Assembly (NCBI GenBank): GCA_022710645.1
Contig: JAKLGL010000001.1
Span: forward strand, 20,614-84,613
Length of the DNA stretch: 64,000 nt
DNA from: Patescibacteria group bacterium
Lineage (GTDB): Bacteria; Patescibacteriota; Patescibacteriia; Magasanikbacterales; GWA2-37-8
Direction of reading: 5' to 3'
Below the pieces are notes generated by a model that saw nothing but the letters and a program-made list of their open reading frames with translations, was not told where the DNA came from and ran no database searches. The translations under genes were made by a program, and so were the position numbers. Below, piece by piece: positions 1,121 to 13,614 of this stretch; position 1 is the stretch's first letter, and every line of letters starts with the position of its first letter.

Positions 1121-1720
1121 ATGAATTTCACACCTTTGGTTCAAAAAGCGATTGACATGTCCGCCAGATTGCACAACGGACAAAATCGCAAGAATGACGA
1201 AACTTTGCCTTATGTCAGTCACTGTTTTTCAGTAGCGTGCATTTTGAGTCAATACACAGGTAAACCCGAAGTCATCGCCGCCGGACTTCTGCATGATGTT
1301 CTGGAAGATGTCAAAGGGTACACTTACTATGACTTGTTGAGAGACTTTGGTCCGGAAGTGGCCAATCTCGTCAAAGCAGTATCCGAAGATAAGGATCCCA
1401 ATGCCAAAACGGACAAGCGGGCTTCTTGGATGAAGAGGAAAAAGGGATATCTGGAAAATCTGCAGAAACACGGCTCGGGAGCAATGCTCATTTGTGCCGC
1501 GGACAAGATTAACAACCTGAGATCTGTTACAGCTTGGTATTTAGAGACAGGGGAGAAAACTTGGGAAAAGTTTAATTCCTCGGTCAAAAATCAGATTTGG
1601 TATTATCAGGAAGTCTTGAGGATTTTGAAAATCGGTCTCCGCGGTAACACTATTATAAGTTCGCTGGAGAAAGAAATTGAAAGATTCCTTGATGTCTTGT
1701 TAAAAAGCAAATCCATTTAA
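1121..1720 (+). CDS. HD-domain phosphohydrolase, RelA/SpoT-type (p)ppGpp hydrolase-like (small alarmone hydrolase)
   Basis: The motif AGLLHDVLEDVK and the N-terminal 'LHNGQ.R..DETLPYVSH' match the SpoT/RelA HD hydrolase domain. At 199 aa it lacks a synthetase domain. Confidence 0.65.
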   Translation: MNFTPLVQKAIDMSARLHNGQNRKNDETLPYVSHCFSVACILSQYTGKPEVIAAGLLHDVLEDVKGYTYYDLLRDFGPEVANLVKAVSEDKDPNAKTDKRASWMKRKKGYLENLQKHGSGAMLICAADKINNLRSVTAWYLETGEKTWEKFNSSVKNQIWYYQEVLRILKIGLRGNTIISSLEKEIERFLDVLLKSKSI

Positions 1721-1789: not shown

Positions 1790-1818
1790 TTGCAAAAGAA
1801 GAAGAATTGGAGTAAAAT
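1790..1818 (+). promoter_or_regulatory. sigma70-like promoter TTGCAA-17-TAAAAT upstream of hsdM
   Basis: Hexamers and spacing read from the sequence. Confidence 0.45.
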
Positions 1819-1843: not shown

Positions 1844-3307
1844 ATGTTTGAACAATCATTAAAAAATATAGACGATATTCTTCACCAAGATTCTGGTTGT
1901 GCTACTGAACTTGATTATATTGAACAAACCTCATGGATTTTATTTTTGAAATATTTGGATGATTTGGAAAAAGATAGAGAAACCTCGGCAAAATTGGCAG
2001 GTAAAAAATATGAATATATTATTGACCCTCAATATCGTTGGGAAAAATGGGCGATGCCAAAAAATAAAGATGGCAAAATTGATCACAACACTGCTTTGTC
2101 AGGGGATGATTTGAAAGATTTTGTTAATGGTAAATTATTTCCTTATCTTAAAAAATTTAGAGCAGATGCATCAAGTCCGGATACGATTGAATATAAAATT
2201 GGGGAAATTTTTAGTGAATTAAAAAATAGAATAGAGAGCGGTCACAGACTTCGTGAAATTTTGGAAATAGTGGACGCGCTACATTTTCGTACTGATGCGG
2301 AAAAACACGAACTTTCTCATCTTTATGAAAGCAAAATTGCCAAAATGGGCAATGCTGGACGTAATGGTGGGGAATATTACACTCCAAGACCGCTTATTCG
2401 CACGATTGTAAAAATTGTCGCGCCGAAAATTGGAGAGAAAATTTACGACGGAGCATGTGGCAGCGCCGGCTTTTTGGTGGAAGCTTTTGATTATCTCAAA
2501 TCTGAAAATAAAGATCGTTCTACAAAAAATGATGAAATTTTGCAAAAGAAAACTTTTTACGGCAAAGAAATAAAATCCCTGGCTTATATCATCGGCACAA
2601 TGAATATGATCTTGCATGGCATTGAAGCGCCAAACATCACTCATACCAATACCTTGGCGCAAAATATCAATGATATTCAAGAAAAAGACAGGTTTGATGT
2701 TATCCTTGCCAATCCGCCATTTGGCGCAGGTATTGGCCGAGAAATTCAACAAAACTTTCCCATCAAAACAGGTGAGACTGCTTTTCTTTTTCTTCAACAC
2801 TTTATCAAAATTCTCAAAGCCGGTGGGCGAGCGGGTATTGTTATCAAAAATACTTTTCTTTCCAATACCGACAATGCTTCGGTTAGTTTGCGTAAACTAC
2901 TTTTAGAAAATTGTAATTTGCATACGATTTTAGATTTACCAGGTGGCGCTTTTCAAGGCGCTGGTGTAAAAACTATAGTTTTATTTTTTGAAAAAGGAAA
3001 ACCAACGAAAAATGTTTGGTATTACCAACTCAGCCTTGATCGAAATCTTGGCAAAGGTAATCCACTTAACGAAAATGACTTAGCGGAATTTGTAAAATTG
3101 CAAAAAACAAAAGCAGACAGTGAAAACTCTTGGAGTTTAGATGTGTCTAAAATTGATCAAAATACTTTTGATTTATCAGTTAAAAATCCGAATAAAAAAG
3201 AGGAAAATGTTTTGAGAGAACCGAAGGAGATTTTGGAGGAGATGGAAGAAATAGACGAGGAAAACAAAATAATATTTAAAAAAATCAAAAATTTAGTACA
3301 TGACTAA
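1844..3307 (+). CDS. hsdM: type I restriction-modification system, DNA methyltransferase subunit M
   Basis: HsdM-like N-terminal domain. The N6-adenine methyltransferase motif NPPFG is present, as is an AdoMet-binding DGACGSAGFL motif. Confidence 0.9.
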   Translation: MFEQSLKNIDDILHQDSGCATELDYIEQTSWILFLKYLDDLEKDRETSAKLAGKKYEYIIDPQYRWEKWAMPKNKDGKIDHNTALSGDDLKDFVNGKLFPYLKKFRADASSPDTIEYKIGEIFSELKNRIESGHRLREILEIVDALHFRTDAEKHELSHLYESKIAKMGNAGRNGGEYYTPRPLIRTIVKIVAPKIGEKIYDGACGSAGFLVEAFDYLKSENKDRSTKNDEILQKKTFYGKEIKSLAYIIGTMNMILHGIEAPNITHTNTLAQNINDIQEKDRFDVILANPPFGAGIGREIQQNFPIKTGETAFLFLQHFIKILKAGGRAGIVIKNTFLSNTDNASVSLRKLLLENCNLHTILDLPGGAFQGAGVKTIVLFFEKGKPTKNVWYYQLSLDRNLGKGNPLNENDLAEFVKLQKTKADSENSWSLDVSKIDQNTFDLSVKNPNKKEENVLREPKEILEEMEEIDEENKIIFKKIKNLVHD

Positions 3308-4802
3308 TGCTGATATTAAAATTTATTTTTCTGATTTTTTTGAAGTAGATCATAATAAATTAGAAAGTTATGGCGCTCTTGATATCTCGTTATTGTCAGA
3401 TAATCCAGCTTTTATTGACCCATTTTTAATATTTTATAGTAAAAATAAAGATTATCAACAATTACACCAATCTATTGTCAATTATTTAATCTTTTTAAAA
3501 AAACAAAGTGACGAAGGTAATTTTTCTAATTTATTTTATACATTTCCAGAAGTAAATGAAGTTTGGCTTGGTTTTTCAAAAAGTGGTAATAAAGGACTCG
3601 GTTTAGGACCATATTTTGCTAATGAATTAAATGAAAATCTAATCAATATTTTTAAGGGTAATAAAAATAAAATTACAAAAAGTACACACATTGAAAAACT
3701 TTGTATTATTGGAGAGCGAATTGGAGCGGATAAAATAAGTGATTTTACACTAAATTTGATAAAACATTATTTAGTAAAGTATACTGAAAAATTTGCCATT
3801 GAAAATTTAGACAATAAATACATTTCAAAATTTAGAATATCAAAATTATTTTTTGATTTCGAAAAAAGTAATTGGGTTGATGGTGAAGCTGTCCTTCCAA
3901 TAAATCCGCATGATAAGTCGAACTATGTTTTATTAACACCAAAAGATATTCTAGTGAAAGAGGAAGGGTGGATTTCAGTTAATGATTTTTTAAATAATGA
4001 CGGTTTAATTATAAGTAATATTTCAAATGATGATTTGCGTTATAAAATAAACCAATACTTTCTTTCTTTGATTCCTGATAAGCGTAATAGAAATGGTAAA
4101 CCTGAAAAAGACTTATCGAAGAAAAATACGAGAAATGCAATGAAAGAAACGGCAAAGAAATATCCCGAATTAATCGATTATTTTATTAAATGTAAAGAAG
4201 AAAACGGGCAGGGTGCGGTTGAAGCTAGTTTAGTTGATAATGACTTTTTGAAACAAGTGTTCTATCTTGGTATTAAAGCTATTACTAAAAATTTAAAAAT
4301 TGAAGGTTTTTATAAAACAAATATAAAAGACAATTCATTTTTAGAAACAATAGATAAAATTAAAAAATTTAAGTATGTAATGGAAAAAAGAGATGGGTAT
4401 ACTGTATTTTGGGATGATAAAAAATTAAGAAAATTTAAAGAGCCAGATGTAGACAAAATGATTGATTTAGTTTTCGCTTCTTCTGATTTTTCCATAGATA
4501 AACAAGTTAATAACGGAAGAGGCTCGTCGGATATTAAGGTTTCAAAAGGATCCGCTGATTGTACTATTATAGAAACAAAACTTGCAAAAAACCCTCAATT
4601 AGAAAATAATTTACAAAAACAGTTAAATATTTATAAAGAAGCAAATAATACAACAAATGGTGTTTATGTAATTTTATATTTTAATGAAGATGAATTTAAA
4701 AAGGTGCAAAAAATATTCAAAAAATTAGGAATAGATGATTGTGTTGACAAATGGATATTTTTAATTGATTGTAGAAAGAAAATATCCGCCTCAAAGGCTT
4801 AA
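3300..4802 (+). CDS. uncharacterised 500-aa protein embedded between hsdM and hsdS, with a C-terminal PD-(D/E)xK-like motif (putative nuclease-fold defence protein)
   Basis: It overlaps the hsdM stop by 8 bp, which suggests translational coupling. The C-terminus has '...EPDVDKMIDLVF...(about 30 aa)...CTIIETKLA', a D...ExK pattern. There is no Walker A. Confidence 0.55.
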   Translation: MTNADIKIYFSDFFEVDHNKLESYGALDISLLSDNPAFIDPFLIFYSKNKDYQQLHQSIVNYLIFLKKQSDEGNFSNLFYTFPEVNEVWLGFSKSGNKGLGLGPYFANELNENLINIFKGNKNKITKSTHIEKLCIIGERIGADKISDFTLNLIKHYLVKYTEKFAIENLDNKYISKFRISKLFFDFEKSNWVDGEAVLPINPHDKSNYVLLTPKDILVKEEGWISVNDFLNNDGLIISNISNDDLRYKINQYFLSLIPDKRNRNGKPEKDLSKKNTRNAMKETAKKYPELIDYFIKCKEENGQGAVEASLVDNDFLKQVFYLGIKAITKNLKIEGFYKTNIKDNSFLETIDKIKKFKYVMEKRDGYTVFWDDKKLRKFKEPDVDKMIDLVFASSDFSIDKQVNNGRGSSDIKVSKGSADCTIIETKLAKNPQLENNLQKQLNIYKEANNTTNGVYVILYFNEDEFKKVQKIFKKLGIDDCVDKWIFLIDCRKKISASKA

Positions 4803-4809
4803 TATTTTT

Positions 4810-5922
4810 ATGAAAAATATTATTACTGATAAAAATAATTGGCAAACAAAAAAACTTGGTGAACTTTGCGATATTACAACTGGCAATTCAAATACAGTCG
4901 ATGCTGTCAGTGATGGTCAATATGCTTTTTTTGATCGATCGAAAATAATTAAAAGGAGTCATAATTTTTTGTTTGATTCGGAAGCGTTGATTATTCCAGG
5001 AGAAGGTGCTGAATTTTTCCCTAGATATTATTCAGGAAAATTTAATTTACACCAAAGAGCTTATGCTTTGTTAAATTTTAATAAAAATACAAATGTTAAA
5101 TTTGTAGAATATTTTTTAATTTTTGAACACAAATATTTTGAAAGGGTTGCAGTTGGAGCTACTGCAAAGTCTTTAAGAAGAAGACATTTTGAAGATTTAG
5201 AAATTCCGCTTCCACCCCTCCCCGAACAACATCGCATCGTAAAAATTTTAGATGAAGTTTTTGAAAATATTACGGAAGCGAAAGAAAACGCTGAAAAAAA
5301 TCTTCAAAATTCAAAAGATCTTTTTGAATCGTATTTACAGAATGTATTTGCGAAAAAGGGGAATGGTTGGGAGGAAAAGACTTTAGGCGAGGTGTGTAGA
5401 TATGATAAAACACCATATAAAAAAAGTAATTTACCCTATGTTGGACTTGAAGATATAGAATCAAATTCAGGTAAATTTTTAGGTTCTTTGGATTCAAAAA
5501 AAGTAAAAAGTAATACTTTTCATTTTACACCAGAACATGTTTTATATGGCCGTTTAAGACCTTATTTAAATAAAGTGTTACTTCCAGATTTTGAAGGTCA
5601 TTGTTCAACAGAGATTTTTCCTATAAAGCCCAGCAAAGATTTATATAGAGGGTTTTTATTTTTTTGGCTTATTTCTAAAAAAATAGTTAAAAAAATAAAT
5701 GCCACTTGGACTGGAGCTCGAATGCCTAGGGCAAACATGAATGAAGTATTAGATTTTATAATCCCAATACCATCAATATCCGAACAAAAATCCATCGTTG
5801 CCAAACTTGACGCGCTTTCGGAACAAACTAAAAAACTGGAAGAAATTTATAAACAAAAATTAGCGGATTTGGAGGAATTAAAAAAGTCGGTGTTGAAAAA
5901 GGCTTTTAGCGGGGAATTATGA
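4810..5922 (+). CDS. hsdS: type I restriction-modification system, specificity subunit S
   Basis: Two target-recognition-domain halves separated by the conserved central 'LPPLPEQHRIVKILDEVF' helix, with a C-terminal 'LEELKKSVLKKAFSGEL'. The start was chosen at MKNIITD; the ORF track's 4765 start overlaps the preceding gene. Confidence 0.85.
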   Translation: MKNIITDKNNWQTKKLGELCDITTGNSNTVDAVSDGQYAFFDRSKIIKRSHNFLFDSEALIIPGEGAEFFPRYYSGKFNLHQRAYALLNFNKNTNVKFVEYFLIFEHKYFERVAVGATAKSLRRRHFEDLEIPLPPLPEQHRIVKILDEVFENITEAKENAEKNLQNSKDLFESYLQNVFAKKGNGWEEKTLGEVCRYDKTPYKKSNLPYVGLEDIESNSGKFLGSLDSKKVKSNTFHFTPEHVLYGRLRPYLNKVLLPDFEGHCSTEIFPIKPSKDLYRGFLFFWLISKKIVKKINATWTGARMPRANMNEVLDFIIPIPSISEQKSIVAKLDALSEQTKKLEEIYKQKLADLEELKKSVLKKAFSGEL

Positions 5923-6473
5923 AAGCCAGTGAATATCAAAATCAAATCGCAGAACTTTTAAAACAAATTTTTCCGGCTGAATTGGTAAAAAAGGAATGGG
6001 ATTCGTCTGTGACTTTTAATGACTTGTCTCATAATAAAATGGTTTATGCTCCACGTATAGATGTTGCAATTGGCCCGTTTAATAATCGTTTTAATTTAGA
6101 TGTTGGAGAAATGCCGAGCGATTTGATGAAAAAACATCCTTTTACTAGAATGATGTTTGAAAGGCATTATAATGATATAGATGATTTTGATAAGGTATGG
6201 AATAGTTTTTCTCGTTGTTATTTAGCGATCGAAGTGGAGTTTAGTGGTTCAGCAAAACATATTTTTGGTAGCATAATTAATGCAGTTACAAATGGATCTT
6301 TAGCTTTTATTATTACAAATAAAGAAAATTACAGTAAAGTAGATCGAATTATTAAGTATATTTGGCGACAAGAAAATCAAGAGGTAATAGAATTAAATAC
6401 TTTGAAAAATTTATTGGTATTTGAGGAAGGGGAATTTTTGGAAGTATTGAGGGAATATTTAAAAAAAGTATAA
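5919..6473 (+). CDS. hypothetical protein translationally coupled to hsdS (ATGA overlap), with a possible restriction-endonuclease-like fold
   Basis: 184-aa ORF whose start overlaps the hsdS stop by 4 bp. It has 'YAPRIDVAIGP' and 'LAIEVEFSGSAKH' acidic motifs. The fold assignment is speculative. Confidence 0.5.
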   Translation: MKASEYQNQIAELLKQIFPAELVKKEWDSSVTFNDLSHNKMVYAPRIDVAIGPFNNRFNLDVGEMPSDLMKKHPFTRMMFERHYNDIDDFDKVWNSFSRCYLAIEVEFSGSAKHIFGSIINAVTNGSLAFIITNKENYSKVDRIIKYIWRQENQEVIELNTLKNLLVFEEGEFLEVLREYLKKV

Positions 6474-6557
6474 AATAGGTATAACTAGACTTATTTAAGA
6501 AATTTTATACAAGAGAATTGTAAACAATTTATCTATAATTAGCCAAAAAAAGCAGTA

Positions 6558-6617
6558 TTGACATTACTTATATAATGTAATATACTAGTAATATAACATA
6601 CTAGTATAATCTAATAT
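6558..6617 (+). promoter_or_regulatory. Promoter region (TTGACA-17-TATACT, with a second TATAAT at 6605-6610) carrying two copies of the 8-bp palindrome TACTAGTA
   Basis: TTGACA at 6558-6563. The palindromes are in 'tatactagtaatataacatactagtataat'. The ATG at 6618 has no RBS and sits about 7 nt after the TATAAT, so the mRNA may be leaderless. Confidence 0.45.
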
Positions 6618-8051
6618 ATGAATCAAGAATTAATACAATATTTACAAAAACAAATAAGAACAGTTGAAGATAGGTTATATAAATATACTCACAATACCCA
6701 AGGAGGTAAATTACCTCAACGTTTTTTGTTTGTTAAAATTCAAAAATATCTCAATGATTTTTTAGGTAAAATTTCAGAAAACAGATTAATTATTATTCCT
6801 GGATTACGAGGTGTAGGTAAAACTACTTTGATGGCTCAAATTTGTAGTGATTTAATTGTAAATAAAAAAAATGTAAAAACATTATTCCTGTCATTAGATG
6901 AAGTAAAAAATCTTTTTAATGTTGGGATATCTGAAGTTATGCAAGCATATGAAGAAATTTTAGGTGAAGATTTGGAAAGTTTATCAGAAAATGTTGTTAT
7001 TTTTTTCGATGAAGTGCAAAGTGATCCAACCTGGGCAAAAGCATTGAAAATACTTCATGATAAAACATCCAAAATATTCTTTTGTTGTACAGGATCTTCA
7101 GCAGTAGTATTGCAATCAACCCCAGATATAGCTAGAGGTAGGGCTATATTTGAAAGAATGACCCCGATGTGTTTTATGGAATTTGAAATGGTTAAAGACA
7201 AAGTTTTTCCTACAAAACAATTAAAAAAAGATATATGGGATGCTGTTTATTTTTCCAAAGATGCTGTAGAGGTTTATGATAAATTATCAAAACTACAAAG
7301 TTTGGTAAATAATTATTGGAGCAAGGTGGATAGAAGAGATATGGAGAAATTTTTAGCATATGGATCTTTGCCATTTACTTTACAACTTCCAAACGAAACT
7401 ATTATTAATGATTCTATTTCTTTGTTATTGGATGGAATTATTAAAAAAGATTTACCGATGCTGAATGGTTTTGATGTTAAAACGTTATCACAAGTCAAAA
7501 GATTACTTTTTATTCTTGCTGAAAATGACACGACCAGTATCAATAAATTAGAGGAAATATTAGGTATTGATAGACTAACTATAGCGAGTTTATTGGATGC
7601 TTTAGAAAAAGCAGAATTGATTATAAAAATTTCGGCTTATGGTTCCAATATGTCGGTGGCAAAAAAACCAGCAAAATATCTTTTTATGTCTTCAGCTGTG
7701 CGTATGTCATTTTTTTCAATATCTGGAAATGAAAATACTTTTTCTACAAGAAAAGGAAAGCTCTTGGAAGATTCTGTAGGTACACATTTATATAGAGAAT
7801 TTATACTTAAAAATGATGGCGCTTTACGATATGATAGTTCGCAGAATGGCGCAGATTTTATTTTGCAAATTGCTAATAAAAAACAGATAATAATTGAAGT
7901 TGGTTTGGGTAAAAAAGACAGAAAACAAATTTTAAATAGCATGGAAAGAATTGATTCAGATTATGGCATAGTTTTTTCAAGTAATCCTTTAGTTATTGAT
8001 CAAGATAAAAAAATAGTCAATGTACCTTTGGATTATTATTTTTTAATGTAA
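6618..8051 (+). CDS. AAA+ ATPase of the AAA_14/DUF4143 (COG1373-like) type, embedded in the type I R-M locus
   Basis: Walker A 'GLRGVGKTTL' and Walker B 'VIFFDEVQ'. The C-terminal region 'NGADFILQ...IIIEVGLGKK' resembles the DUF4143 nuclease-like module. Confidence 0.7.
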   Translation: MNQELIQYLQKQIRTVEDRLYKYTHNTQGGKLPQRFLFVKIQKYLNDFLGKISENRLIIIPGLRGVGKTTLMAQICSDLIVNKKNVKTLFLSLDEVKNLFNVGISEVMQAYEEILGEDLESLSENVVIFFDEVQSDPTWAKALKILHDKTSKIFFCCTGSSAVVLQSTPDIARGRAIFERMTPMCFMEFEMVKDKVFPTKQLKKDIWDAVYFSKDAVEVYDKLSKLQSLVNNYWSKVDRRDMEKFLAYGSLPFTLQLPNETIINDSISLLLDGIIKKDLPMLNGFDVKTLSQVKRLLFILAENDTTSINKLEEILGIDRLTIASLLDALEKAELIIKISAYGSNMSVAKKPAKYLFMSSAVRMSFFSISGNENTFSTRKGKLLEDSVGTHLYREFILKNDGALRYDSSQNGADFILQIANKKQIIIEVGLGKKDRKQILNSMERIDSDYGIVFSSNPLVIDQDKKIVNVPLDYYFLM

Positions 8052-8055
8052 TCGT

Positions 8056-10395
8056 ATGAATGAATCAGAAACACGAGCTGAACTCATTGATCCCAAACTG
8101 AAAGCTAGTGGTTGGGGAGAAATAGAGGGCTCAAAAATTTTACGTGAATTTCGAATTACTGATGGACGTATTCAAACAGGTGGCACACGCACAAAGCCGG
8201 AAATAGCCGACTATATTTTGGTTTATAAAAATCAAAAGCTTGCGGTGATTGAAGCAAAAAAAGAAAGTTTGTCGGCTAGCGAGGGTGTAGCTCAAGCTAA
8301 AACTTATGCGGAAAAATTACAGATTGATTTTACTTATTCCACCAATGGCAAAGCAATTTACGAAATTTCAATGAAAACAGGTAAAGAAGGATTAGTGCGA
8401 GATTTTCCGACCCCCGACGAATTATGGAATAGAGTAAATGCAAAATCAAATGAATGGAAAGAAAAATTTGCAACTGTGCCAAACGAGGGAGATTATGGTA
8501 GTCGTTATTATCAAGAGATTGCGATAAACAATGTTTTGAATGCTGTGGCTGAAGGTAAAAATAGAATTCTTTTGACTATGGCAACTGGTACGGGTAAAAC
8601 CGCGGTAGCTTTTCAAATTGCTTGGAAACTTTTTCAAACGCGTTGGAATTTACAAAGAAATGGCGAACGCCGACCGAGAATTTTGTTTTTAGCTGATAGA
8701 AATATTTTGGCCGACCAAGCTTACAATGCTTTTTCTGCTTTTAAAGAAGACGCGCTTGTTCGAATTAATCCACTTGATATTCGTAAAAAGGGCAAAGTGC
8801 CAACTGGTGGAAGTATCTTTTTTACAATTTTTCAAACTTTCATGAGTGGTCCGAATAATACTTCATATTATGGAGATTATCCAGCGGACTTTTTTGATTT
8901 TATTATTATTGATGAGTGCCATCGTGGTGGAGCAAATGACGAAAGTAATTGGCGAGGAATTATGGAATATTTTGCTCCAGCAGTTCAACTTGGTTTAACC
9001 GCTACCCCACAAAGACGAGACAACGTTGATACCTATAGATATTTTGGGGAACCAGTTTATATTTATTCCCTCAAAGAAGGCGTAAACGATGGATTTTTAA
9101 CCCCGTTTAAAGTAAAAAGAATCAAAACTACCTTAGATGACTATGTTTATACGGTAGAAGATCAGATTGTGGAAGGGGAAGTTGAAGAAGGAAAAATTTA
9201 TGAAGAAGAAGATTTTAATAGAATTATAGAAATTCAAGAAAGAGAAGCAAAACGTGTAAAAATCATGTTTAGTGAAATAAATCAAAATGAAAAAACCATT
9301 GTGTTTTGTGCTACTCAAAGTCATGCTGCGGCTGTTCGCGATTTGATCAACCAATTGAAAGAAAATAAAGATCCAAATTATTGCGCTCGTGTAACAGCCA
9401 ATGATGGCGCGCGAGGAGATCAATTTTTACGTGATTTTCAAGATAATGAAAAAACTATTCCAACAATTTTGACCACTTCGCAAAAACTCTCAACTGGTGT
9501 GGATGCTCGCAATGTTCGCAATATTGTGTTGATGCGACCGGTAAATTCCATGATTGAATTTAAACAAATTATTGGACGCGGAACTCGTCTTTTTGATGGA
9601 AAAGAATTTTTTACTATTTTGGATTTTGTAGATGCTTATAAAAATTTTTCTGATCCAGCTTGGGACGGAGATCCTGTAGAAGTGATTGAAGAAAAACCTA
9701 CTAAAAAGAAGGTTGATAAAATAAAAGAGCCCAAAGCAAAATACGAACCGATTAGCGAAGAAGGAGAAGGCGAAGAACCAAAAAAGAAATTGGTTATTAA
9801 ATTAAGAAATGGAAAAGAACATGAAATTCAACACATGGTCTCAACTTCTTTTTGGAGTGCAGATGGCAAACCAATCACTTTGCAAGAATTATTAAATAGT
9901 ATGTATGAAAAATTGCCAGAATTTTTCAAAAATGAAGACGATTTACGTAGAATTTGGTCTAACCCTATTACTCGTAAAGCATTATTAGAAAAAATAGCTG
10001 ATGCAGGATATGGAAGAGAAGAATTGGAAACATTGCAAAAAATGATTGATGCAGAAAATAGCGATTTATTTGATGTTTTGTCTTTCTTTTTATATTCAGT
10101 TAAACCGATCACTAGAGAACAAAGAGTGGAAAAATCAAAGAAAACCATTTTTGATAAATTAGACAATGAACAAAAAGAATTTTTAGAATTTGTTTTGCAA
10201 AAATATATTGATAATGGCGTGGAAGAGTTGGAAGAAGAAAAATTACCTTTGTTGTTGAATTTAAAATATCATGCGATTGCCGATGCTATTAATCAGCTTG
10301 GTGATGTGGATAAAATTCGTTCGGTATTTTTTAGTTTCCAAAAGGAACTATATACTAAAGAAAAAATTAGTAATTTGTTTAGATGTTTTATTTAA
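8056..10395 (+). CDS. hsdR: type I restriction enzyme, R subunit (EcoEI-like short form)
   Basis: N-terminal 'ETRAELIDPKLKASGWG' HsdR_N motif. SF2 helicase motifs 'MATGTGKT' and the DECH box 'IIDECHRGG'. The C-terminal domain is EcoEI-R-like. Confidence 0.9.
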   Translation: MNESETRAELIDPKLKASGWGEIEGSKILREFRITDGRIQTGGTRTKPEIADYILVYKNQKLAVIEAKKESLSASEGVAQAKTYAEKLQIDFTYSTNGKAIYEISMKTGKEGLVRDFPTPDELWNRVNAKSNEWKEKFATVPNEGDYGSRYYQEIAINNVLNAVAEGKNRILLTMATGTGKTAVAFQIAWKLFQTRWNLQRNGERRPRILFLADRNILADQAYNAFSAFKEDALVRINPLDIRKKGKVPTGGSIFFTIFQTFMSGPNNTSYYGDYPADFFDFIIIDECHRGGANDESNWRGIMEYFAPAVQLGLTATPQRRDNVDTYRYFGEPVYIYSLKEGVNDGFLTPFKVKRIKTTLDDYVYTVEDQIVEGEVEEGKIYEEEDFNRIIEIQEREAKRVKIMFSEINQNEKTIVFCATQSHAAAVRDLINQLKENKDPNYCARVTANDGARGDQFLRDFQDNEKTIPTILTTSQKLSTGVDARNVRNIVLMRPVNSMIEFKQIIGRGTRLFDGKEFFTILDFVDAYKNFSDPAWDGDPVEVIEEKPTKKKVDKIKEPKAKYEPISEEGEGEEPKKKLVIKLRNGKEHEIQHMVSTSFWSADGKPITLQELLNSMYEKLPEFFKNEDDLRRIWSNPITRKALLEKIADAGYGREELETLQKMIDAENSDLFDVLSFFLYSVKPITREQRVEKSKKTIFDKLDNEQKEFLEFVLQKYIDNGVEELEEEKLPLLLNLKYHAIADAINQLGDVDKIRSVFFSFQKELYTKEKISNLFRCFI

Positions 10396-11413: not shown

Positions 11414-12022
11414 TTGTATATGAAAAAACAAATCATCGTCATCCACGGCGGAGATAGTTTCAACAGTTACAAACAATATTTTTCCAATTTAAAAAACATC
11501 AAAATCAATTTTGAGAAAATGTTTCGTAAAGGTTGGAAAGATGGTCTCCCCAAAATGCTTGGCAAAAACTATCAAGTAATAATGCCGAGCATGCCCAATA
11601 AATCCAATGCCCGTTTTGAGGAATGGAAGATTTGGTTTGAAAAATTGTTCCCATTTTTGAATAGAGAAGTTGTGTTGGTCGGTCATTCGCTTGGCGCGAG
11701 TTTTTTATTGCGTTATTTATCCGAAAATAAATTCCCGAAAAAAATCAAAGCGACTTTTTTGGTTTCCGCGCCATATCAACAAAAGGGGATGCGTACCGAT
11801 TTGGGCGATGATTTTCGTTTTGGCCAAGATATGAGTTTGTTAATCAAACAATCCCCGAGGCTGGTTTTTTATCAGAGTCAAGACGATAAGGTCGTGCCTG
11901 TCTCCGATTTTGAAAAATTCAAAGATCTTTTTCCCGGCGCTTGTTTTGTAGAGTTCAAAGATAGAGGACATTTTGGTCAAGAAAATTTCCCGGAAATAGT
12001 CAGGGATATAAAGAAAATATAA
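11414..12022 (+). CDS. alpha/beta-fold serine hydrolase (YdeN/RBBP9-like)
   Basis: Nucleophile elbow 'VGHSLGAS' with downstream Asp and His candidates, in about 200 aa. Confidence 0.6.
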   Translation: MYMKKQIIVIHGGDSFNSYKQYFSNLKNIKINFEKMFRKGWKDGLPKMLGKNYQVIMPSMPNKSNARFEEWKIWFEKLFPFLNREVVLVGHSLGASFLLRYLSENKFPKKIKATFLVSAPYQQKGMRTDLGDDFRFGQDMSLLIKQSPRLVFYQSQDDKVVPVSDFEKFKDLFPGACFVEFKDRGHFGQENFPEIVRDIKKI

Positions 12023-12078
12023 TAAAGAGGATACTGGATATTAAAACCCCGGCTGAAAGGCCGGGTTTTATAATAGGA

Positions 12079-12107
12079 TTGACTTTTGTTAAATTTTATG
12101 TTATAAT
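12079..12107 (+). promoter_or_regulatory. sigma70-like promoter TTGACT-17-TATAAT for the GC-rich DUF218 gene
   Basis: Read directly from the sequence. It is preceded by the terminator hairpin ccggc...gccgg at about 12045-12068. Confidence 0.55.
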
Positions 12108-12159
12108 CTCGAGTTAGTGTTCTTTTTATTATAAATCCAAAATATCATGGAGGTGGCTC

Positions 12160-12786
12160 ATGCCGAGAGAAGGAAATGTTACGCGGGTGATTTTTGTCCC
12201 CGCTGAACAGATTGAAAAAGAAAATCGTCTTTCAGTGAGAACGACGATGCGTCTTGAACGAGCCCTGGCTCTTTTTAAGACGGGAGAGTATGATCTGATT
12301 ATTCTTTCGGGAGGTATTTTCAATCCTCTCGAAGTGCAGACAGTTTCTGCAGCCAGACTGATGAAGACCTGGCTTTTGCAGAAAGAGGTGAAAAGAGAGT
12401 GTATTATTACAGAGAATCATTCTCTCGACACCTACGAGAATATAAAGTTTTCATTCGGGCATCTCTGGTCGTGTTTCAAAGAAAAATATTCTCCCTTTTC
12501 CGGAGTTGTCGGTTGTGGCGCTGACCGTGCATCAATCATAGAGGGGAGCTTCAGGGGAGAAATCACCCTGATAAGTGACTACTGGCATTTAGAACGCTTT
12601 AAGGTTATTGTCGCACATTCGACATCTGTTTTTGCCACAATGCCGTGGATCTACGAAGATTCCGGCTATAAGCTTGATTTTATCGGGAGGATCAAGGAGA
12701 AAATTTTTCTCCTTATCACCAAAAATGACCCCGAAGGCACAGGGTGGTTGGCAAGGTTTAACCGCTATTGCCGCCGCCAACTATAA
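12160..12786 (+). CDS. DUF218 (YdcF/ElyC/SanA-like) domain protein with anomalously high GC
   Basis: 'LIILSGG...' and 'HSLDTYEN' motifs are typical of DUF218. Local GC is near 48% against a background near 35%. Confidence 0.65.
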   Translation: MPREGNVTRVIFVPAEQIEKENRLSVRTTMRLERALALFKTGEYDLIILSGGIFNPLEVQTVSAARLMKTWLLQKEVKRECIITENHSLDTYENIKFSFGHLWSCFKEKYSPFSGVVGCGADRASIIEGSFRGEITLISDYWHLERFKVIVAHSTSVFATMPWIYEDSGYKLDFIGRIKEKIFLLITKNDPEGTGWLARFNRYCRRQL

Positions 12787-12921
12787 AATTTTGTTTTTTG
12801 GATTTTTATAACCGTCTTGGCTTTATGTCACGACGGTTTTTTATTACTTGTATGCATTGATTTTTTCTCTTTTATTTTTAATCAAAAAATGTTATAATTT
12901 CTTCAAATAAAACTATTTATT

Positions 12922-13614
12922 ATGACCAAACCTCGTCGTGTTGCCATTTTTGACATTGACGGAACGATATTTCGCTCCAGTTTGTTGATAGAAGTGACGG
13001 AAGAATTAATAGAACAAGGAATATTTCCGACTAAGGTCAGAAATATTTATATGAAGCCTTATAAAAATTGGTCCAATCGTCGCGATACCTACGAAAAATA
13101 TATTGATTCGGTAGTTGTGGCTTTCATGAAAAATATCAAAGGCGTGGATTATAAAGCTTTTGCTAAAGTAGCAAACAAGGTGATAAACGCCAAAAAAGAC
13201 CGAGTTTATCGTTACACTCGCGATTTGGTGTATGAATTGAAAAAGAAAGGATTTTTCCTTTTAGCTATTTCTCAATCTCCCAAAGAATTGGTTCAAAATT
13301 TCGGTTATAAAATGGGTTTTGATAAAGTTTACGGTCGAGATTATGAAGTTGGTAAAAATGGTAAGCTTACCGGCAAAGTTTTGTTTTTGGATTTGATAGA
13401 AGATAAAGCCAATGTTTTGAAACGCGCGGTGGAAAGAAATAACCTGACTTTGAGAGGGTCTTACGGAGTCGGGGACAGCGAGGGTGATATTACTTTGTTG
13501 CAAATGGTAGAAAATCCTATTTGTTTCAATCCCAATAATAAACTATACCAACACGCCAAAAAACACGGTTGGGCTGTGGTGGTGGAGAGAAAAGATAATA
13601 TATATAAATTATGA
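12922..13614 (+). CDS. HAD-superfamily hydrolase (HAD-IB/phosphoserine-phosphatase-like)
   Basis: Motif I 'IFDIDGTIF' and a C-terminal 'GVGDSEGDITLL' motif IV. Confidence 0.75.
   Translation: MTKPRRVAIFDIDGTIFRSSLLIEVTEELIEQGIFPTKVRNIYMKPYKNWSNRRDTYEKYIDSVVVAFMKNIKGVDYKAFAKVANKVINAKKDRVYRYTRDLVYELKKKGFFLLAISQSPKELVQNFGYKMGFDKVYGRDYEVGKNGKLTGKVLFLDLIEDKANVLKRAVERNNLTLRGSYGVGDSEGDITLLQMVENPICFNPNNKLYQHAKKHGWAVVVERKDNIYKL

What the first reader, a model, noticed from the sequence alone, without database searches (positions are those of the whole stretch)
3300..4802. 500-aa unknown between hsdM and hsdS with a C-terminal PD-(D/E)xK-like motif
The C-terminal ~120 aa contain '...EPDVDKMIDLVFASSDF...(about 30 aa)...ADCTIIETKLAKN'. 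This places a hydrophobic beta-strand Asp before an E-x-K in a following strand, the hallmark arrangement of restriction-endonuclease-fold nucleases. The N-terminal ~350 aa have no recognisable ATPase or methylase motifs. The gene starts inside the last codons of hsdM, so its expression is coupled to the methylase. It is a candidate effector nuclease of an Abi or defence module, or possibly an accessory restriction component.
Basis: partly seen in the sequence, partly recalled or inferred. Interest (0 to 1): 0.7.

Follow-up and report, generated by a model that had tools for sequence, protein, structure and literature searches.

The report
Sensor-nuclease defence gene inside restriction operon
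The 500-aa gene wedged between hsdM and hsdS belongs to a large uncharacterised family (Pfam DUF8370+DUF8371) whose C-terminus is very probably an active restriction-endonuclease-fold nuclease and whose N-terminal module is elsewhere fused to TIR, SIR2, caspase and other immune "killer" domains, so it is most likely a stand-alone anti-phage protein riding in the restriction operon.

Summary

The N-terminal ~370 aa (DUF8370 plus a helical linker) have no solved structural relative, only weak helix-hairpin-helix-like hits. Relatives carry TIR, SEFIR, SIR2, CHAT, caspase, phosphorylase or EAD7 domains instead of, or after, the nuclease. All 16 proteins of 560 aa or more (at least 14 confirmed fusions) have lost the catalytic tetrad (Fisher p=8e-13), which is an effector swap.

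The family occurs in at least 569 species. It has no conserved partner gene and lies in defence islands and mobile elements. Only 23% of loci are near type I R-M genes, although close CPR relatives keep the coupling to hsdM. The best reading is a single-chain sensor-nuclease defence gene embedded in the R-M operon. The trigger and the nuclease activity are untested.

The parts
3300..4802 (+). Complete ORF (500 aa + stop) of the DUF8370+DUF8371 protein ('X')
   Evidence: ORF list. It is 100% identical to a hypothetical protein of a Candidatus Magasanikbacteria MAG. The N-terminus aligns with the N-termini of homologues.
3300..3307 (+). 8-nt overlap of the X start codon with the hsdM stop (ATGACTAA), giving translational coupling
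   Evidence: Sequence. Overlaps of 4-14 nt with an upstream N6-adenine methyltransferase gene recur in relatives at 83%, 72%, 71% and 50% identity.
3300..4019 (+). N-terminal module, residues 1-240 (Pfam DUF8370), the part shared by every architecture. Invariant D34, D40, E84, D144, S147, D148; near-invariant H56, H130, E132
   Evidence: Conservation. The PADLOC PDC-M36A match covers only residues 10-234. Forms without a nuclease retain only DUF8370. No PDB fold relative.
4029..4409 (+). Residues 244-370: mainly helical middle region linking the N-terminal module to the nuclease
   Evidence: Secondary structure of the model. Conserved P289, E300, E362.
4422..4799 (+). Residues 375-500: PD-(D/E)xK (restriction-endonuclease-fold) nuclease domain, the predicted effector
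4440..4442 (+). Codon of E381 (helix-1 acidic residue)
   Evidence: 165/165 conserved; coordinates.
4530..4532 (+). Codon of D411 (the 'D' of the PD motif, after the NNGRG loop)
   Evidence: 165/165 conserved. The loop is deleted in all effector-fusion variants.
4572..4580 (+). Codons of E425-T-K427 (the ExK motif)
   Evidence: E 165/165 and K 165/165 conserved; lies in strand 420-428.
4620..4634 (+). Codons of Q441-L-N-I-Y445 (QxxxY motif, as in RecB/Cas4-type nucleases)
   Evidence: Q 163/165 and Y 160/165 conserved; lies in helix 434-448. The link to the RecB/Cas4 motif comes from general knowledge.
4779..4793 (+). Invariant C-terminal tail K494-I-S496-A-S498, role unknown
   Evidence: S496 157/165 and S498 163/165 conserved. 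The tail is absent wherever the catalytic tetrad is lost.
1844..3307 (+). hsdM (host operon): type I N6-adenine methyltransferase
   Evidence: Pfam N6_Mtase 2.5e-66 and HsdM_N.
4810..5922 (+). hsdS (host operon): specificity subunit, starting 7 nt after the X stop
   Evidence: Pfam Methylase_S 1.5e-34; start site.
8056..10395 (+). hsdR (host operon): EcoEI-type restriction subunit, apparently intact
   Evidence: Pfam ResIII, EcoEI_R_C, HSDR_N.
1790..1818 (+). Promoter-like site before hsdM, preceded by a terminator-like hairpin at 1728-1745; probable start of the hsdM-X-hsdS transcript
   Evidence: Consensus scan only; weak evidence.

Best explanation
X is a single-chain 'sensor-effector' immune protein that has been captured as cargo inside a type I restriction-modification operon.

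Its conserved N-terminal module (DUF8370 plus a helical linker) is proposed to detect an infection-associated cue. The weak helix-hairpin-helix resemblance suggests a nucleic-acid or DNA-associated cue, and the module has an invariant acidic/His site. The C-terminal PD-(D/E)xK domain (E381, D411, E425-x-K427, Q441xxxY445) is proposed to be a divalent-metal-dependent DNase that is then unleashed on phage and/or host DNA, as direct interference or abortive infection.

In this genome and its close relatives the gene is translationally coupled to the 3' end of hsdM, so it is made whenever the methylase is made. It does not need the R-M system to work, because most family members are solo genes.

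Shown: the fold, motif conservation, modular effector exchange, genomic contexts and the gene overlap. Inferred: nuclease activity, sensing by the N-terminal module, the nature of the trigger, and the anti-phage phenotype.

For: (2) The catalytic set is invariant in 165/165 homologues, down to about 25% identity.

(3) Effector swap. Relatives carry TIR, SEFIR, SIR2_2, CHAT, Peptidase_C14+EAD7, PNP_UDP_1 or EAD7 alone after the same N-terminal module. 0 of 16 proteins of 560 aa or more (at least 14 of them confirmed fusions) keep the nuclease tetrad, against 165 of 192 standard-length proteins (Fisher p=8e-13).

(4) No conserved partner gene in 78 loci. Neighbours are R-M genes, GmrSD, Schlafen-type helicases, AAA_15/21 ATPases, RhuM, integrases and transposases. 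Plasmid and Tn3 cargo. Distant DUF8370 relatives sit beside Gabija, McrBC, AbiE and MazF.

(5) The distribution is patchy but very wide: at least 569 species genomes and 3546 clusters at 50% identity. GC is 25.6%, against 34-36% for hsdM, hsdR and the window.

(6) The N-terminal half matches PADLOC candidate PDC-M36A, a family nominated through 'guilt-by-embedding' in R-M/BREX/DISARM systems.

(7) The gene overlap with an upstream MTase gene is conserved in relatives.
Against: There is no experimental evidence for any member; all are annotated 'hypothetical protein' and no paper mentions the DUFs.

The window protein matches no curated nuclease family at E<=1, and its profile finds no PDB sequence, so the nuclease call rests on a predicted structure plus motifs.

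The N-terminal module is highly conserved and has an enzyme-like acidic/His constellation. It could be a second catalytic domain rather than a sensor. The EAD7-bearing variants could be read as effectors recruited by another sensor (PMC7159879).

Confidence: 0.6

Rival explanations
1. PrrC-like guard of the restriction system. X is a latent nuclease held inactive by contact with HsdM/HsdS (or an MmeI-type enzyme). It fires when a phage anti-restriction protein (Ocr, ArdA or Stp-like) disables the R-M complex, giving a second line of defence. This is a special case of the best explanation with a specific trigger.
For: X is embedded between hsdM and hsdS, much as prrC is embedded in the EcoprrI locus (general knowledge; PrrC is cited as almost exclusively R-M-embedded). 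A start-stop overlap with the upstream N6-adenine MTase gene is conserved in relatives at 83%, 72%, 71% and 50% identity, including an MmeI-type enzyme, while the other cargo changes. Among R-M-linked loci in other phyla the gene is often overlapped or abutted to hsdM, hsdS or hsdR.
Against: 53 of 69 loci (77%) have no HsdM/HsdS-like gene within 10 kb, and many are solo genes on plasmids or transposons. A general R-M guard mechanism therefore cannot apply to the whole family. No HsdM-X fusion proteins were seen among 150 representatives. There is no homology to PrrC or RloC: no ATPase and no HEPN-like domain.
Confidence: 0.15
2. Accessory or alternative restriction subunit. X is recruited by the methylase/specificity complex and cleaves unmethylated target DNA, supplementing or replacing HsdR.
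For: Its position between hsdM and hsdS with translational coupling. It has a RE-fold nuclease domain. The MTase coupling is conserved in the CPR subclade.
Against: An apparently intact HsdR with its own nuclease and helicase domains is in the same operon. Most family members lack R-M neighbours. Replacement of the nuclease by TIR, SIR2, caspase, CHAT or phosphorylase domains makes no sense for a site-directed restriction subunit.
Confidence: 0.07
3. Selfish or mobile-element function rather than immunity. X would be a toxin/addiction module or a nuclease that serves the maintenance or movement of the islands, plasmids and transposons carrying it.
For: Frequent neighbours are tyrosine and serine recombinases and transposases. 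It is Tn3/IS256-flanked on a Sinorhizobium plasmid. Its GC is low relative to neighbours.
Against: No conserved antitoxin-like partner exists. The gene is not linked to any one class of mobile element. The alternative effector set (TIR, SIR2, caspase, CHAT, EAD7) is the hallmark of immune/conflict systems. Embedding in R-M and location beside Gabija, McrBC and AbiE point to defence islands. It is rare in viral contigs (10 loci in 2.9 million) and absent from 50,697 phage genomes.
Confidence: 0.08
4. The C-terminal domain is a non-catalytic RE-fold DNA-binding module, and the real activity, if any, resides in the acidic/His site of the N-terminal DUF8370 module.
For: The N-terminal module is the most conserved part, and its invariant D34/D40/E84/D144/D148 set is kept in all architectures. 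RE-fold domains are sometimes inactive binders (general knowledge).
Against: The full catalytic constellation E-D-ExK plus QxxxY is invariant in 165/165 standard-length homologues with an intact domain, and it decays precisely when another effector is present. That is the pattern expected of an active effector, not a binding scaffold.
Confidence: 0.05

Closest known systems
Pfam DUF8370 (PF28123) + DUF8371 (PF28130)
   Same: The window protein and all full-length homologues carry exactly these two precomputed Pfam families. This is its formal family.
   Different: Both are 'domains of unknown function'. No function, fold assignment or literature was found. The local Pfam-A copy does not yet contain them.
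PADLOC phage-defence candidate PDC-M36 (protein A), from Payne et al. 2024, bioRxiv 10.1101/2024.01.29.577857
   Same: Shares the N-terminal ~230-aa module (E=5e-23, residues 10-234). PDC candidates were nominated because they are embedded in type I R-M, BREX or DISARM systems, the same situation as here.
   Different: PDC-M36 is a three-gene cassette (FAM_01399>>FAM_00303>>FAM_00303) and is untested. The match stops before the middle and nuclease regions in every family member tested. X is a solo gene with its own nuclease domain.
PrrC / RloC anticodon nucleases embedded in type I R-M loci
   Same: A latent toxic nuclease gene nested inside an hsd operon and co-expressed with it. This is the paradigm of an R-M-embedded second-line defence (general knowledge).
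   Different: There is no homology. PrrC is an ABC-ATPase plus an RNase acting on tRNA. X has no NTPase motifs and has a DNase-type PD-(D/E)xK domain. PrrC is almost always R-M-embedded, whereas X is R-M-linked in only about 23% of loci.
Single-protein or sensor-linked PD-(D/E)xK defence nucleases: Shedu SduA, CBASS Cap4, CRISPR ancillary Can1/Can2/Card1/Cdn1
   Different: None of their HMMs match (PADLOC and Pfam). The sensor domain here is not CARF, SAVED or DUF4263. No signal-generating enzyme gene is linked.
RecB/Cas4-type and BamHI/BglII/BstYI-type PD-(D/E)xK nucleases
   Same: Best structural matches are BstYI 8.0, BamHI 7.7, OkrAI 7.2, Cas4 SSO0001 7.1 and BglII 6.9. The motif order E...GxGxxD...ExK...QxxxY resembles RecB/Cas4 motifs (general knowledge).
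   Different: Sequence identity is 5-15% with no profile-level match. There is no conserved Cys cluster as in Cas4 and no recognisable specificity elements of type II enzymes. The invariant K-x-S-A-S C-terminal tail is unique.
Modular conflict-system proteins with interchangeable effectors and EAD adaptors (Kaur et al. 2020, eLife, PMC7159879)
   Same: The same repertoire of effectors (REase-fold, TIR, SIR2, caspase/CHAT, nucleoside phosphorylase) and an EAD7 adaptor is attached to a constant module.
   Different: Those systems are built around NTPase cores (MoxR-vWA, STAND, GTPases). Here the constant module is DUF8370, with no NTPase motif, and mostly no linked NTPase gene.

Membership tests
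PD-(D/E)xK (restriction-endonuclease-like) nuclease superfamily | alpha-beta-beta-beta-alpha-beta core fold | tested here: met
PD-(D/E)xK (restriction-endonuclease-like) nuclease superfamily | Conserved acidic residue at the end of strand 2 and (D/E)xK in strand 3, plus a helix-1 Glu | tested here: met
   E381, D411, E425 and K427 are each 165/165 in standard-length homologues with an intact domain. They persist at 25-33% identity.
PD-(D/E)xK (restriction-endonuclease-like) nuclease superfamily | Significant profile match to a curated PD-(D/E)xK family | tested here: inconclusive
   The window protein has no Pfam-A or NCBIfam hit at E<=1. 11 of 49 homologues hit PDDEXK_9 weakly (best E=9e-4) and 2 hit DpnII-MboI. 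The profile against PDB sequences finds nothing.
PD-(D/E)xK (restriction-endonuclease-like) nuclease superfamily | Divalent-metal-dependent phosphodiester cleavage | not testable with these tools
   Needs biochemistry.
RecB/Cas4-like clade | QxxxY motif in the helix after the ExK strand | tested here: met
   Q441 163/165 and Y445 160/165, in helix 434-448.
RecB/Cas4-like clade | Match to PDDEXK_1 / Cas_Cas4 profiles; a four-Cys Fe-S cluster (Cas4) | tested here: not met
   No such Pfam hits in the window protein or in 49 members. No conserved cysteines in the C-terminal domain alignment.
Type I R-M system component (obligate subunit or accessory) | Consistent co-occurrence with hsdM/hsdS/hsdR across the family | tested here: not met
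   16 of 69 loci (23%) have HsdM/HsdS-like genes within 10 kb, and 10 of 69 have an R-M gene adjacent. Co-occurrence is consistent only within the close CPR subclade.
PADLOC candidate PDC-M36 | Full-length match to the PDC-M36A profile, and presence of the two partner genes | tested here: not met
   The match covers only profile positions 8-225 of 457, and the same holds for 10 other relatives. PADLOC scans of the 184-aa ORF (which follows hsdS) and of the AAA_14 gene gave no PDC-M36B/C hit. No conserved neighbour exists.
Pfam DUF8370 + DUF8371 | Hits to PF28123 and PF28130 | tested here: met
   Precomputed Pfam hits for the identical protein and for all 120 listed homologues.
Known nuclease-type defence systems (Shedu, Cap4, NucC, Can2/Card1, AbiEii and others in PADLOC) | Match to the system's HMM | tested here: not met
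   PADLOC-DB scan at E<=1 returned only PDC-M36A.
PrrC/RloC | N-terminal ABC-type ATPase plus a C-terminal anticodon nuclease | tested here: not met
   No P-loop or ATPase family hit. The C-terminal domain is RE-fold.
Helix-hairpin-helix (HhH)2 DNA-binding domains (for residues ~101-169) | Two consecutive HhH motifs with G-h-G hairpins; structural or profile match | tested here: inconclusive

The most novel reading that the evidence does not exclude
DUF8370 is the sensor core of a previously unrecognised, very widespread family of single-chain prokaryotic immune receptors. The family spans at least 569 species and about 3500 clusters at 50% identity. It has no NTPase and no partner genes, and its fold is absent from the PDB. 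It couples one conserved, possibly DNA-binding and metal-dependent, sensing module to interchangeable effectors (PD-(D/E)xK nuclease, TIR/SEFIR, SIR2, caspase/CHAT, nucleoside phosphorylase, EAD7 adaptor). The 500-aa nuclease form is the commonest version. In CPR bacteria it is wired translationally to N6-adenine methyltransferase genes, perhaps to monitor the R-M system.
Probability: 0.45. Interest if true: 0.72.

Novelty: new variant of a known kind. Interest (0 to 1): 0.58.

Why it matters
If confirmed, this adds a large, phylum-spanning defence family that the PADLOC, Pfam-A and NCBIfam libraries scanned here do not identify; only a partial match to an untested candidate was found. It would supply a new sensor fold for studies of how bacteria detect infection. 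It is also a clean natural experiment: the same sensor module sits on seven or more effector types, with the nuclease active site decaying whenever another effector takes over.

It gives a concrete case in minimal-genome CPR bacteria of a type I R-M operon acting as a docking site for several extra defence genes (X, a PDC-S01-type ATPase, and in relatives Panacea TA, Fic and GmrSD). For annotation, DUF8371 can be relabelled as containing a PD-(D/E)xK nuclease domain with named catalytic residues.

Tried and rejected
1. Curated libraries. Pfam-A, NCBIfam and PDB-sequence searches with the protein and with profiles of the whole protein and of the C-terminal domain found nothing usable.

2. A conserved partner gene. 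BLAST clustering of neighbours in 78 loci found none. A specific test of the recurrent ~200-aa same-strand downstream ORFs showed they are all unrelated to each other and to the window's 184-aa ORF. The two-gene idea was rejected.

3. X as an obligate R-M component. Rejected on co-occurrence.

4. A trans-encoded effector next to the short 'degenerate' forms (P0192, P0219, P0189, P0223). The contigs were too short, so this is inconclusive.

6. Literature. Searches for PF28130, PF28123, DUF8370, DUF8371 and PDC-M36 gave no paper. The supplements of Payne et al. name the PDC-M36 cassette but give no function.

7. Phage carriage. None in 50,697 phage genomes and only 10 loci in IMG/VR, so a phage-encoded counter-defence reading was dropped.

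8. My first column mapping of the catalytic residues was off by one and was redone.
Full report
**1. What is there**

The window carries a type I R-M operon on the + strand:
- hsdM, 1844-3307
- the 500-aa ORF 'X', 3300-4802
- hsdS, 4810-5922
- a 184-aa orphan ORF, 5919-6473
- an AAA_14/DUF4143 ATPase, 6618-8051
- an EcoEI-type hsdR, 8056-10395

The ATG of X overlaps the hsdM stop by 8 nt (ATGACTAA), and hsdS starts 7 nt after the stop of X. An identical protein and operon occur in a Candidatus Magasanikbacteria (CPR) MAG. X has the lowest GC of the operon: 25.6%, against 34.5% for hsdM, 34.3% for hsdR and 35.9% for the window.

**2. The C-terminal domain is a PD-(D/E)xK nuclease domain, with one correction**

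A 49-sequence alignment (41-83% identity to X) has these invariant residues: E381, N404, D411, S415, E425, K427, N437 and Q441. Y445 is conserved in at least 90% of sequences, and there is a C-terminal K494-x-S496-A-S498 tail.

An AlphaFold2 model (pLDDT 83.5) gives helix 381-391, strands 398-401, 412-416 and 420-428, helix 434-448, strand 453-460, helix 463-476 and strand 486-490. This is the classical restriction-endonuclease core.

At sequence level the window protein matches no curated nuclease family. When the 49 homologues are scanned one by one, 11 hit Pfam PDDEXK_9 weakly and 2 hit the DpnII/MboI REase family.

Among 192 proteins of standard length (430-559 aa), taken from the 120 listed homologues and the 147 proteins new, 165 have the full tetrad. 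Within those 165:
- E381, D411, E425 and K427 are each 165/165
- Q441 is 163/165
- Y445 is 160/165
- S498 is 163/165

The Asp it pointed to (D389 of 'MIDLVF') sits in helix 1 and is not conserved. The motif order E...GxGxxD...ExK...QxxxY resembles RecB/Cas4-type nucleases (my knowledge), but there is no Cys cluster and no profile match.

**3. The N-terminal 370 residues**

This part is the most conserved in the family. Its invariant residues are D34, P36, D40, P41, H56, E84, W89, N97, H130, D144, S147, D148 and N152.

It corresponds to Pfam DUF8370 plus part of DUF8371, both of unknown function. No literature mentions them.

The first ~230 residues match PADLOC candidate PDC-M36A (E=5e-23). 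PDC-M36 is an untested three-gene cassette nominated by 'guilt-by-embedding' in R-M, BREX or DISARM systems (Payne et al. 2024). All family members share only this N-terminal part with it.

**4. Family-level evidence for function**

A profile search of 1.84 billion representatives found 3546 clusters. A genome scan found the family in at least 569 species across nearly all bacterial phyla.

Some relatives carry a different effector, either in place of the nuclease region or after it:
- TIR_2 or SEFIR
- SIR2_2
- CHAT
- Peptidase_C14 + EAD7
- PNP_UDP_1 phosphorylase
- EAD7 alone

In every protein of 560 aa or more (16 of 16, at least 14 of them confirmed fusions) the catalytic tetrad is incomplete. 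The NNGRG-D loop, QxxxY and the SAS tail are missing in all of them, and the Glu of ExK is missing or substituted in about half. By contrast, 165 of 192 standard-length proteins are intact. Fisher's exact test gives p=8e-13.

This is the signature of effector exchange on a constant module. It argues that in the 500-aa form the nuclease is the active effector and that the family acts in biological conflict. EAD7 is described as an adaptor that recruits effectors in conflict systems (PMC7159879).

**5. Genomic context**

In 78 loci with up to 10 kb of flanking sequence there is no conserved partner gene. The frequent ~200-aa downstream ORFs are unrelated to one another.

The commonest neighbours are HsdM, HsdS and HsdR, tyrosine and serine recombinases, transposases, GmrSD, Schlafen-type helicases, AAA_15/21 ATPases and RhuM.
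- 16 of 69 loci (23%) have HsdM/HsdS-like genes within 10 kb.
- 10 of 69 have an R-M gene directly adjacent on the same strand, at varying positions: after hsdM, hsdS or hsdR.

On plasmids the gene is always annotated 'hypothetical protein'; on pSmeSM11a it lies between a Tn3 transposase/resolvase and an IS256. Distant DUF8370-only relatives lie beside Gabija + McrBC, Eco57I-type R-M + AbiE, and ImmA/IrrE + MazF. The family is absent from 50,697 phage genomes and rare in IMG/VR.

The close relatives of the window protein tell a more specific story. At 83%, 72% and 71% identity the order is kept: hsdM, then X overlapping it by 4-14 nt, then hsdS (with one extra 221-aa ORF before hsdS in L085), variable cargo and hsdR. 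The cargo between hsdS and hsdR changes each time: Panacea TA, Fic, none, or U184 + AAA_14 in the window. L085 also has a GmrSD gene just downstream of hsdR. At 50% identity, X overlaps the 3' end of an MmeI-type methyltransferase-endonuclease gene instead.

**6. Most likely mechanism**

X is a self-contained sensor-effector defence protein. The N-terminal DUF8370 module perceives an infection-linked cue, possibly on DNA. The C-terminal metal-dependent nuclease executes the response. In this lineage the gene is embedded in, and translationally coupled to, an R-M methylase gene, which ensures co-expression (confidence about 0.6).

Confidence that the C-terminal domain is a catalytically competent PD-(D/E)xK nuclease is higher, about 0.85.

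Rivals:
- A PrrC-like guard of the R-M complex (0.15; favoured by the CPR-specific MTase coupling, disfavoured by the 77% of solo loci).
- An accessory restriction subunit (0.07).
- A mobile-element or addiction function (0.08).
- A non-catalytic RE-fold domain, with the activity in the N-terminal module (0.05).

**7. Novelty and verdict**

The family is catalogued only as two DUFs, plus a partial match to an untested PADLOC candidate. No function, fold or catalytic residues have been published as far as the searchable literature shows.

The kind of thing, an R-M-embedded Abi-type nuclease or a sensor-nuclease immune protein, is well known. The sensor module and the breadth of its effector exchange appear to be new. 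I class it as a new variant of a known kind, with interest 0.58.

Its interpretation is supported.

Noticed in passing
window 5919-6473 (+): A 184-aa ORF overlaps the end of hsdS by 4 nt and has no match in Pfam, NCBIfam, PADLOC, PHROGs or PDB sequences. It contains 'PRIDVAIG' and 'LAIEVEFSGSAKH', which look like a second D...ExE/K restriction-fold motif. It is not found next to X in close relatives.
   Followed up: partly
window 6618-8051 (+), promoter-like site 6558-6586: An AAA_14 + DUF4143 ATPase with a winged-helix region matches PADLOC single-gene candidate PDC-S01 (E=2.5e-32). It has the best promoter-like site of the region (11/12) just upstream. This is a second candidate defence gene embedded between hsdS and hsdR.
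   Followed up: partly
L085, L086 and the P0015 contig (relatives of the window operon): The slot between hsdS and hsdR is a variable cargo bay. It holds HTH + SocA/Panacea toxin-antitoxin genes in L085 (with GmrSD just after hsdR), Fic in the P0015 contig, and nothing in L086. The hsdM-X junction stays constant.
   Followed up: partly
L087 4335-8497: In a 50%-identical relative, X overlaps by 4 nt the end of an MmeI-family (type IIL/IIG) methyltransferase-endonuclease gene. A DEAD-box helicase and a T5orf172 gene follow, and a serine recombinase and a PIF1 helicase lie nearby.
   Followed up: no
homologues P0030, P0196, P0204, P0212 (alignments A1, A2): Trp appears at otherwise invariant Gly positions (for example 'WRW' for 'GRG', and 'WLWFS' for 'WLGFS'). 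These proteins probably come from UGA=Gly (genetic code 25, Gracilibacteria/SR1) organisms translated with code 4. This mistranslation artefact in the public databases affects 8-9 of the 165 sequences.
   Followed up: partly
window 3001-8000 versus flanks: GC drops to 24-31% across X, hsdS, the 184-aa ORF and the ATPase gene, against 39-46% in parts of the flanks (positions 1-1500 and 11500-13000). This is consistent with horizontally acquired cargo inside the operon.
   Followed up: partly
window 1121-1720 (+) and about 14170 onward: The operon is flanked upstream by an HD_4 (RelA/SpoT-like HD hydrolase) gene and, several genes downstream, by a PIF1-family helicase gene. No link to the finding was established.
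   Followed up: no
proteins P0148, P0142, P0215: Further architectures on the same N-terminal module: DUF8370 + EAD7 adaptor only, DUF8370 + degenerate nuclease + caspase + EAD7, and DUF8370 + PNP_UDP_1 nucleoside-phosphorylase-like domain.
   Followed up: partly
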